The notes below the pieces were generated by a model. It made no database searches and was not told the DNA's origin. It saw only the letters and a list, made by a program, of their open reading frames with translations. A stretch of 64,000 bases of DNA from the human T2T-CHM13v2.0 reference genome, Homo sapiens. Shown in pieces: positions 15,942-57,242 of this stretch (within the stretch, counting starts at the first letter, position 1; every line of letters begins with the position of its first letter). The translations under genes were made by a program, and so were the position numbers. The stretch is taken from the NCBI RefSeq assembly GCF_009914755.1, contig NC_060934.1, one strand, 5' to 3'.

Positions 15942-16253
<312 letters not shown>

Positions 16254-17549
16254 TTCAGTTACATTTATTTAACAAATTTCGAAAACTTTCCTTTGATCAT
16301 TTTTCTGTTCAGGCTTTATAACTTTCTCAAAGTATTATTTATATTTTGTTACAAAATTATCTATTTTTCATAGTTTCAATATGTTTTCAAAGAGTTCTAC
16401 ACAATGGTATTTTTTAACTTTCTATAATTTTTACAGAAATCAGGTTAATACTTTTCATTCTTAATTTTGGATGTATTTATTTCTTTTCTTTAATCAAACC
16501 AACCAATGTTTTGAAAAGTAGCTATTTATTGGATTAGATGTAATTTCTCCACTTTCTTATTTCATTGATTTCTATTTTTATCTTTATTAAAACATTCCTC
16601 TCAATATTTTGGTTCATTTTTATTTTTACTTTACTAGGTTCTTGAAATAAATAATTTATTCACAAGTTTATTTTTTAAATTTAAAAATATTTAGAGGTAC
16701 AAGTGTTTCTCTGAGTACAGCTTTAGCTTAAACTCATATTTTGCTATGATTTATTACTTTGATTCACATCTAGATAATTTATAATTCTAGGTATAACATC
16801 ACTTGAATTAGGAAATATTTATAATATTGTTTCTTACCTTTGAAGGGGTATAATTTTGTTTTCTTGTTATATGTTTGTTTCTTTGTTGTTATGTAATCTG
16901 ATTTGACTATGATAAAAGAATTCATCCTATAAAGTACCAAATATTTGGAAGTTTAGATTTTCTGTTACTAATTAATTATATTAGTGGGCTTTTCAGTGAA
17001 TATTTCATCAATTTAAGAAAAGAATATGTATACATGTGATGATCTCTGTGAAAATACTTGATTATATTTCATATTTTGACTTTTGACTACTGGATGTATC
17101 AAATTCTGTAAAATATCTTCCTTTATGTATTTCCCTTCTTTGAGGTTTGGTACTAGAAGGTAATGACTAGTCTATTACTATAGGTTGTATACATTGGAAA
17201 AGAAAGCTATTCCTTTATTATTAAATAATGGAGTTAGCATTGAATGAAACATTATTATTAATAAAGCCAGTTTCTATTTTTGCACTTACATAATGTATTA
17301 CCATATTTATAGTAAATACAAAATATATATTATAAATGAATGCGTGCATATACATTTCGTTTATTTTAAACACACGTTTAATTAAAACATAACATTATTA
17401 AGGGGTAAAAATAAAATCATAGTTAGCTAAACTATTACGAAGTGACCATCCTGCTGTAACCACCACCAAAAGAAATGCTATATATTCAGTTTCAAAAACC
17501 TCCCTTGTGCCCCATTTCAGTAATTTCCCGCTGTACAACTTTGTATACA

Positions 17550-19935: not shown

Positions 19936-20385
19936 TGTATATATTTGGGCAGATAACTTCAACTTCCTGAGTTTTTATTTCCTTGTTGATTACAACATAA
20001 TAATAAGGGTGAGAAGGATGGACCAGATAATCTGATAGGGACAACTAAAATGATAGGCAATATAATTCACAGTCCTGGTTTACAGAAGGGTTAAACTAAT
20101 GCTAGGTAAGAAAATATAGGAACTAATTAGTGAGTAGGTCTCAGTTTCTTTAATTCAATTTCTGATTTTTATTTTTTTTTACTATGACACTAATTTCTAA
20201 GTACATTTGAGCTACAAAAAGTATATACATGATTTCACATTCTTGTCTAGACAACATCAGAGTGTCCATAGAATCTGTAAGATAATTGGCAGCTATATTG
20301 GAAAACACAGCTGAGACTGCTGTGGTGAGTAAAATAATTTCATCAATGAATAACCACTTTCGATTATAGATGATATGTAGAGAAA

Positions 20386-20678
20386 TCTATATATTCCGTA
20401 TTCGTAGTCAACAATGTTAAACCATGAAGAGAGACATCAACCCCTGCCCCAAAGAGAAACGGAAGGATAAATTGTAACAATGTGGTCTAATTATGTTAGA
20501 GTCAATCCTCATTGTGAAACCTAAATATGGTCTAACAAAACAGATTTCACAATGAGAGTTGACTCTAACATATTAAGACCACATTGTTACAATTCATCCT
20601 TTCATTTTTCCTTGGGGCAGGGGTTGATGTCTCTCTTCATGGTTCAACATTGTTGTATAAGAATACAGAATACATAGA
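20386..20678. repeat. Long inverted repeat: 134-bp arms, 25-bp spacer
   Basis: 20386-20519 versus the reverse complement of 20545-20678 aligns without gaps at 119/134 identity (hand count). Confidence 0.95.
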
Positions 20679-22052
20679 CCATATTTAGATTCTAACAAAA
20701 CAAAGACCATATTTAGGGTCTAACAAAACAAAGTTTTCACAATGATGATTGACTCCTGGCCAGCTTCAGAAAAAGAAAGAAATTTGTAATTTTTACCAAC
20801 TGTATTTCCCATTTAAGAAACAAATGAATGGGTAAGAATAATAAAATTAGACTTTATTTGATGTTTACGAAAATGCTTTATATATGTAATTTGAATATTC
20901 ACTGATCATCCCATGAGAAGTAGATATTATTGCCACTGCCAGATATAACAATTCATCTGCATTTTTCAGGTGGAAAATTTGACTTGAATTTTGTAGTATA
21001 ACCAAGAAAAATAGGAGAGCCCTATAATTGGCTCAGAACATCTAAATAACCCCAACTCTTCAAAGAGACCTGTAATTACTTTGATGAAGTTGTCTAAACA
21101 TCCATCCATCCTGTCTTTGAAGGATTAGATGCAGAAAAAGCAGATATTTCTCTAATACTATCTGCTAATCTCAAAGAAGTGTTTTCAAATGGGAGAGAAA
21201 AGGTCAATTTTTTTCTTACAAGCTGCTTTTAAAGTATTATTACAAGATAATTGCAATTTCCAACTAATCAAAGATATGTTTAGGTGCTCAGATAATTTTA
21301 TATGCAACTCATACTTTCTATAACCAGCCTCATGTGTATAATTCCCCAAATCTACTTGGGAAAAAAATTGCCTTTTTCTGCTGGGCACTGAGATTCTGAA
21401 ATAAAACCCACAAAGCCATTGCCGGCTTAAACCAGTGGCAGGTCACTAAGGAAGGTCTGCATCTGCCAGGTAAGACTCAATCTCTTCCCCTTAGATCTCA
21501 CTCCTGGTATTCTTCTAACAAATAACCATTTTCTCTATGCTATGTCTTGTACAGCATCTTCAACAGTCTTAATGCTTACTTGAACCTGTGTGTTACAGTC
21601 ATTAAGACAGCAGTATTGTTTTAATGAGACATTTCCATTCCACCCAAGCCTTAATGACTACTTTCAGGTATCTTTTACGAGAATCCTGGGCAGTTGTTTT
21701 GAAGATCATATGCAAGAAAATAAAGTTACTGTAAGCCAGAGCAAAGTTTGATGGGTTACTAGGATGAATGTCTTATTTTCTTGGGACAAAGAGCAGAAAC
21801 TAGTGACTAGTGAAGGCTGCAAATTTTCAAGAATAAAATCTATTTCAAAATAGGAAGATAGATAATACTTCCGGTTTTAATGTTCAGCTTATAGGCAATA
21901 GAACAGGCTAATAATATTGTCTAATTAGAGTATTATAAAGACATTATTGTGATTTATTTTATAGCGAATGATTCTAAATTCTAAAAAGATAAATGATTTG
22001 TTCAAGTCCACATAGCAAACCTTGAGGATCACTCCTACCTAAGAAGATCTTG

Positions 22053-57171: not shown

Positions 57172-57242
57172 AAAACACAAAGTATCTGATTACTTTGTGT
57201 TCCAAATCATAGAACACAAAGTAATCAGATACTTTGTGTTTT
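57172..57242. repeat. Perfect 31-bp inverted repeat with 9-bp spacer; each arm is itself palindromic
   Basis: AAAACACAAAGTATCTGATTACTTTGTGTTC-CAAATCATA-GAACACAAAGTAATCAGATACTTTGTGTTTT. Confidence 0.97.

What the first reader, a model, noticed from the sequence alone, without database searches (positions are those of the whole stretch)
20675..20755. Shuffled copies of the hairpin loop next to the right arm: serial template-switch scar
Seen: after the right arm the sequence is built almost entirely from pieces of the loop and inner arm. TAGACCATATTTAG (20675-20688) is the reverse complement of 20521-20534, joined to the arm through shared TAGA. TCTAACAAAACA (20691-20702) is a direct copy of 20531-20542. 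AGACCATATTTAGG (20704-20717) is the reverse complement of 20520-20533. GGTCTAACAAAACA (20717-20730) is a direct copy of 20529-20542. TTTCACAATGATGATTGACTC (20735-20755) is the reverse complement of 20499-20519 with 1 mismatch. 20676-20731 can also be read as a 2 x 28-bp tandem. Inference: an ancestral ~21-bp stem-loop seeded fold-back synthesis of the long arm, followed by several microhomology-mediated switches (FoSTeS/MMBIR or polymerase-theta-like) before the original template resumed. The third inner-arm copy also allows two mutually exclusive hairpins sharing one left arm.
Basis: partly seen in the sequence, partly recalled or inferred. Interest (0 to 1): 0.7.

Follow-up and report, generated by a model that had tools for sequence, protein, structure and literature searches.

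The report
Old DNA copying scar beside hairpin
A single-copy stretch of non-coding human DNA holds a 137-base hairpin followed by a patchwork of short copies of its own loop, likely left by a DNA polymerase that jumped templates several times tens of millions of years ago; it is a clear example of a known kind of mutation, with no sign of function.

Summary
The five pieces match their donors with 0, 0, 0, 0 and 1 mismatches and cover 73 of 81 bases; 10,000 shuffles reached at most 37. The locus is single-copy. The arms differ at 16 of 137 sites, so it is old and not a fold-back assembly artefact. Serial template switching is supported; the proposed history is not the best one. The left arm is bracketed by a 12-of-15 direct repeat (20380-94 / 20514-28; background 2e-4), and the left flank holds an exact 7-base complement of the right arm's start. 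The left arm is therefore more likely the new copy, seeded by a 7-bp stem. 20717-55 then reads as one direct copy of 20529-65, so no ancestral 21-bp stem is needed. All four short pieces start in one 6-base spot of the loop. Exact junction microhomology is visible at only 2 of 6 junctions. The alternative hairpin is about 75 kcal/mol worse. No primate outgroup could be reached, so polarity is inferred (about 50%). Verdict: new member of a known class (complex templated insertion); low interest.

The parts
20380..20394 (+). Outer copy of the direct repeat that brackets the left arm; 20382-20388 is the exact reverse complement of 20542-20548 (inferred 7-bp seed stem)
   Evidence: 12 of 15 to 20514-20528, best of 221 start/register pairs tried; 7 of 7
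20386..20522 (+). Left arm of the long inverted repeat; inferred to be the newer, fold-back copy (20386-20519)
   Evidence: 137 nt, 16 mismatches to rc 20542-20678; polarity inferred from the bracket
20514..20528 (+). Inner copy of the bracket repeat, spanning the left-arm/loop border
20523..20541 (+). Loop (spacer); the motif GGTCTA at 20529-20534 is where all four short pieces start when read on the + strand
   Evidence: donor starts 20534, 20531, 20533, 20529
20542..20678 (+). Right arm; inferred to be the original sequence
   Evidence: ends in TAGA shared with the first patch piece
20675..20690 (-). Piece C1: inverted copy of 20534 to 20519 (14 exact; 15 of 16 when extended)
20691..20702 (+). 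Piece D1: direct copy of 20531-20542, followed by one unexplained A (20703)
20704..20717 (-). Piece C2: inverted copy of 20533 to 20520
20717..20755 (+). Piece D2 plus third inner-arm copy: one direct copy of 20529-20565 with a 2-base gap, or a direct piece plus an inverted copy of 20499-20522
20676..20731 (+). Apparent 2 x 28-bp tandem formed by C1+D1 and C2+D2; the copies differ only at their internal junction (2 bases)

Best explanation
This is a single-copy, non-coding patchwork of local copies that was likely made by replication template switching in a probably early simian ancestor: a fold-back at a 7-bp stem likely copied the right arm to create the left arm, and repeated re-priming on the loop likely built the patchwork at the base of the new hairpin. 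Step 1 (inferred): a strand made right-to-left passed the right arm and loop, folded back where 20382-88 complements 20542-48, copied 134 bases to the TAGA at 20675-78, and rejoined its template through TAGA/TCTA, leaving the direct repeat around the left arm. Step 2 (inferred): the then-perfect 137-bp inverted repeat with a ~20-base spacer stalled or broke at its base; a 3' end at 20678 landed four times on GGTCTA in the loop, on alternating strands, stopped three times at the loop-stem border, ran 21 bases into the stem the fourth time and rejoined the flank at 20756. The two steps may be one event. Shown: the pieces, their donors, the bracket, single copy, divergence. Inferred: polarity, order, enzymes, age. 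I put template switching as such at about 0.9 and this particular history at 0.5.
For: Pieces exact and far beyond chance. Bracket 12 of 15 at the exact arm-length register; background 803 of 3,913,065 pairs. Given TCT at both ends, the four bases before also match in 111 of 10,422 pairs. The right arm has no such bracket (best 9 of 15). At the one core mismatch (20520) the right arm and piece C1 both read the flank's version. Seven-bp seeds are common (2.4 per kb), 21-bp stems rare. 20717-55 aligns as one direct copy. Donor starts cluster in 6 bases. Long, near-identical, short-spacer repeats stall forks and are cut at the base (PMC7999016, passages). Germline insertions from up to five templates are described (PMC8421209).
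Against: No outgroup sequence was available, so no ancestral state was seen. The bracket was noticed after the fact, and a left-arm-original history could also have used it as a switch site. The model needs two rare steps at one place, plus later loss of 2 bases from the loop. Exact junction overlap is seen at 2 of 6 patch junctions; 4 bases or more has chance probability about 0.025 per junction. The patch carries 2-4 private changes in 77 bases against 4.9 expected (P=0.13-0.46), so the order of the two steps cannot be read from divergence. Junction overlaps are symmetric and do not give the direction of synthesis.
Confidence: 0.5

Rival explanations
1. One complex event with the LEFT arm original: a strand stalled at the loop's right end (about 20544), folded back over 134 bases, then switched six more times (MMBIR-like), twice more launching from the same AGA end, before resuming at 20756. 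No ancestral stem.
For: The copy-model parse explains 20543-20755 from 20300-20542 alone with 2 untemplated bases under 2 of 3 settings. Both direct pieces end in the same extra A followed by AG. It needs only one event, and the loop templates lie within 30 bases of the inferred stall point.
Against: The bracket around the left arm becomes a 0.2-1% coincidence. Two switches must land in the same register at 20520-22.
Confidence: 0.2
2. One reading: an older 21-24-bp stem-loop (left inner arm, loop, third copy) primed fold-back synthesis of the right arm, then four switches, then resumption at 20529.
For: 20717-55 is a direct copy of 20529-65. A long stem is a strong primer. Successive events at one hairpin are described (PMC10710096, part 1 of the text).
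Against: Bracket unexplained; seed rare (3 others in 264 kb); no clear shared derived change between the right inner arm and the third copy.
Confidence: 0.12
3. A simpler three-switch junction later gained an ordinary 28-bp slippage duplication, so only one inverted/direct cycle is real. This is compatible with any polarity.
For: 26 of 28 identity and an AGA at both ends of the unit.
Against: The two differing bases are adjacent and sit exactly at the internal junction. Each version is explained without mutation by its own donor extension (20689-90 continue the inverted copy as read in the right arm; 20717-18 start the direct copy).
Confidence: 0.12
4. The hairpin is a palindromic DNA transposon (MITE), or an assembly chimera of fold-back reads.
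For: Long inverted repeats in human DNA are often MITEs; one lies at 15955-16281 in this window.
Against: One candidate locus genome-wide for three queries, against 5,512 candidates for the control repeat. The arms differ at 16 of 137 sites, whereas a fold-back artefact would give near-identical arms. The search can miss very old repeats.
Confidence: 0.03
5. The hairpin is a selected RNA structure (pre-miRNA-like, or a two-state switch).
For: 8 of 11 transition mismatches would be G-U pairs on the minus strand. Rfam miRNA models score it.
Against: P=0.11 for that bias, with 5 transversion mismatches besides. All 13 Rfam matches lie below their gathering scores (best 65.1 vs 130). No annotated transcript covers it. 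The alternative fold has negligible weight.
Confidence: 0.03

Closest known systems
Complex MMB-TI (templated insertions linked to MMBIR), Osia et al. 2021, PMC8421209
   Same: Local templates copied in both orientations through successive switches; found as germline variants (33 of 103 and 26 of 99 curated calls were complex; up to five templates).
   Different: Those were called against a reference lacking the insertion; this one is old and in the reference. It has a 134-base tract and re-uses one loop motif four times. Microhomology is visible at fewer junctions, perhaps through age.
Short-range four-point template switch mutation, Loytynoja and Goldman 2017 (PMC5453318); Walker 2021 (PMC7954356); Monttinen 2023 (PMC10710096)
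   Same: The long arm alone fits the type that creates an inverted repeat (1-4-3-2 / 3-2-1-4, 31% of 794 events). Multi-switch cases are noted in PMC10710096.
   Different: The patch needs five switches, with returns upstream of the departure point, an order not seen in the 2017 set. The stem is longer than the 30-55-bp miRNA-like class.
Polymerase-theta templated insertions (TINS) / SD-MMEJ, PMC7165422 and PMC5728401
   Same: Short (12-24 base) direct and inverted pieces in succession, in AT-rich DNA.
   Different: First-round tracts are rarely over 10 bases and templates typically lie within 30 bases of the break. Here the arm is 134-137 bases and the donors lie 113-160 bases from the right arm's end.

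Membership tests
Complex MMB-TI | Several nearby templates copied in succession, including inverted ones | tested here: met
Complex MMB-TI | Microhomology or microhomeology at junctions | tested here: inconclusive
   Exact overlap 4 bases (arm|C1) and 1 base (C2|D2); the other junctions show 0 against present-day donors or cannot be resolved. The left-arm ends give 7 and 4 bases if that arm is the insert.
Complex MMB-TI | Is an insertion relative to an ancestral or reference allele | not testable with these tools
   No primate genomes or other human assemblies are held (no relatives)
Four-point template switch mutation | One reverse-complement fragment, two switches | tested here: not met
   The whole structure needs about 7 switches; the long arm alone would fit
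Four-point template switch mutation | Return point does not precede the departure point (observed types) | tested here: not met
   Direct pieces restart at 20531 and 20529, upstream of sequence already copied (rule)
TMEJ TINS / SD-MMEJ | Tracts of about 3-30 bases | tested here: inconclusive
   Met by the short pieces, not by the 137-base arm
TMEJ TINS / SD-MMEJ | Template within about 30 bases of the rejoined break | tested here: inconclusive
   Not met if the break was at 20678; met for the four loop pieces only if it was at about 20544
TMEJ TINS / SD-MMEJ | Insert AT-enriched relative to flanks | tested here: not met
   70.1% vs 68.0% and 71.5%
MITE / palindromic DNA transposon | Dispersed copies in the genome | tested here: not met
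   1 candidate vs 5,512 for a control repeat; very old families could be missed
MITE / palindromic DNA transposon | Match to a Dfam/Repbase consensus | not testable with these tools
   No repeat library is held
miRNA precursor | Rfam family match at gathering score | tested here: not met
   0 of 13 listed matches reach it
miRNA precursor | Transcribed and processed to ~22-nt RNA | not testable with these tools
   No expression data; the supplied annotation shows no gene here

The most novel reading that the evidence does not exclude
The locus is a germline fossil of an extruded cruciform: a new long palindrome formed first, then a 3' end at its base primed repeatedly on the single-stranded loops of BOTH strands, which is why every piece starts in the same 6 bases of the loop, alternates strand, and mostly stops at the stem. 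If so, 'long hairpin plus loop-patchwork at its base' would be a searchable genome-wide signature of cruciform-templated repair.
Probability: 0.12. Interest if true: 0.5.

Novelty: new member of a known kind. Interest (0 to 1): 0.22.

Why it matters
It matters little on its own: intergenic, single-copy, apparently old, no sign of function. Its value is as an unusually legible multi-switch scar whose three possible histories predict three different outgroup alleles, so one alignment settles the mechanism. Multi-switch events are missed by the two-switch scans used for primate genomes (PMC10710096), so such cases are under-counted.

Tried and rejected
Genome-wide DNA searches for other copies of the hairpin, left arm and both flanks found only the locus and its own second arm; transposon origin rejected at that sensitivity. 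Rfam: generic hairpin matches below threshold. Minus-strand G-U bias: not significant. Uneven spread of arm mismatches, as arm-to-arm correction might leave: none (KS p=0.82). Patch younger than the arms: not shown. Two-state hairpin: rejected on energy. A bracket on the right arm, or between loop end and resume point: none (best 9 and 7 of 15). The bacterial promoter/terminator scan is irrelevant to a human locus and was ignored. Two younger perfect hairpins were viewed as possible controls for the bracket signature; I saw no clear bracket by eye and did not test it further. Literature: six searches listed nothing on this locus; none was a search by coordinates. The supplements of PMC10710096 were listed but not opened; its multi-switch figure (SI Fig. 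S3) and datasets, and the event tables of PMC8421209, PMC5453318 and PMC7954356, could bear on whether this site or this pattern is already recorded. Earlier scan findings were not available. The background covers 264 kb, all upstream of or within the window.

Full report
Observation. They follow a 137-base inverted repeat (20386-20522 / 20542-20678; 16 mismatches, no gaps, 19-base spacer). Local exact matches cover 73 of the 81 bases, against a mean of 3.1 and a maximum of 37 in 10,000 shuffles. In 264 kb, 6 clusters passed a filter for mixed direct and inverted local copies: 2 are this locus, 3 are simple repeats and 1 is a local duplication. The feature is real.

What it is not. Searches of the whole genome with the structure, the left arm and both flanks gave one candidate place each. 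A control repeat from the same window gave 5,512 candidates. It is therefore not a recognisable MITE, although very old repeats can escape this search. Rfam gave 13 matches, all below gathering score. Of 11 transition mismatches, 8 would be G-U on the minus strand (P=0.11), so there is no sign of RNA selection. The 'two mutually exclusive hairpins' exist on paper only: the main fold is -113.0 kcal/mol as DNA, the forced alternative -37.6, with pair probability about 1e-48.

Age. The arms differ at 11.7% (95% interval 6.8-18.3%; corrected 12.7%). From recalled neutral divergences (human-chimp about 1%, human-macaque about 6-7%, human-marmoset about 11-13%; no call), this points to around the root of the simians. 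Arm-to-arm conversion would make it older; error-prone synthesis would make it look older than it is. Such divergence argues against a fold-back assembly artefact and makes apes uninformative as outgroups.

Anatomy of the patch. A copy-model parse with 20300-20542 as donor gives, under 2 of 3 penalty settings: long inverted arm, inverted 16, direct 12, one A, inverted 13, direct 14, one A, inverted 24; the laxest setting keeps the four loop pieces but adds chance fragments. Read on the + strand, the four short pieces start at 20534, 20531, 20533 and 20529, all within GGTCTA in the loop, and three end within about 3 bases of the stem border. The last 39 bases also align as one direct copy of 20529-20565 with a 2-base gap. 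Exact overlap at junctions is 4 bases (arm to first piece) and 1 base (third to fourth piece); the other four junctions show none against present-day donors or cannot be resolved. The two tandem units differ only at their internal junction, and each version is explained by its own donor extension, which favours two priming cycles over a late duplication (inference).

Which arm is new. But the left arm is bracketed by a direct repeat: 20380-94 matches 20514-28 at 12 of 15, at exactly the arm-length offset. The background rate is 803 of 3,913,065 pairs, and the right arm's best is 9 of 15. Equivalently, flank 20382-88 is the exact reverse complement of 20542-48. Even if TCT is granted at both ends, the four bases before agree in only 111 of 10,422 background pairs. 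At the mismatch 20520, the right arm and piece C1 both carry the flank's version. This is what an inserted left arm would leave: fold-back at a 7-bp stem and return through TAGA/TCTA. Seven-bp seeds occur 636 times in 264 kb; 21-bp stems 4 times including this one. The right inner arm and the third copy share 0-1 differences against the left arm; 1.5 are expected if all are of one age and 4.6 if the short stem were twice as old. Against this reading: the bracket was found after the fact, no ancestral allele was seen, two rare steps are needed, and a left-original history could have used the same bracket as a switch site.

Mechanism. Most likely (0.5): the fold-back made the left arm; the perfect palindrome then stalled or broke at its base and a 3' end there re-primed four times on the loop before rejoining the flank. 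Long, similar, short-spacer repeats stall forks and are cut at the base (PMC7999016, passages). Enzymes cannot be named from sequence. The arm length and donor distance fit MMBIR-like switching better than polymerase theta (PMC7165422 passages; PMC5728401 passages).

Relation to what is known. It works like the complex germline templated insertions of PMC8421209 (passages and part 1 of section 10 seen); formal membership needs an allele without the insertion, which I could not test. The long arm alone fits a four-point switch (PMC5453318, passages; PMC7954356, passages); the whole does not. PMC10710096 (part 1 of 6 of the text and passages; supplements listed but unread) notes multi-switch hairpins that its method misses. 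Six searches (listings only, apart from the papers named) showed nothing on this locus; the LINC02624 search listed 3 papers on fibroid expression.

Verdict. A real, old, probably functionless scar of serial template switching; a new member of a known kind. Interest 0.22.

Noticed in passing
window 57172-57242: Perfect 31-bp inverted repeat with a 9-base loop. Each arm is itself an 11-bp stem around 6 bases, and those 6 bases are inverted between the two arms. Single-copy in the genome. Looks like a younger nested template-switch product.
   Followed up: partly
window 15955-16281: Dispersed repeat (5,512 candidates, about 90% identity over the first 170 bases) containing an 83-bp inverted repeat; 183-312 is a second, inverted partial copy of the same family. 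Family not identified.
   Followed up: partly
L011:9923-10000 (G000:C10:106933923-106934000): Perfect 28-bp inverted repeat with a 22-base loop; another candidate recent template switch.
   Followed up: no
L019:4040-4120: Local direct duplication of about 33 bases with a partly palindromic core; resembles LINE-1 sequence from recall, not tested.
   Followed up: no
window 20479-20490 and 20524-20535; 20494-20500 and 20531-20537: An 11-of-12 direct repeat 45 bases apart and a 7-bp inverted repeat that folds weakly inside the arm and loop. They may be chance or traces of an older local copying event.
   Followed up: partly
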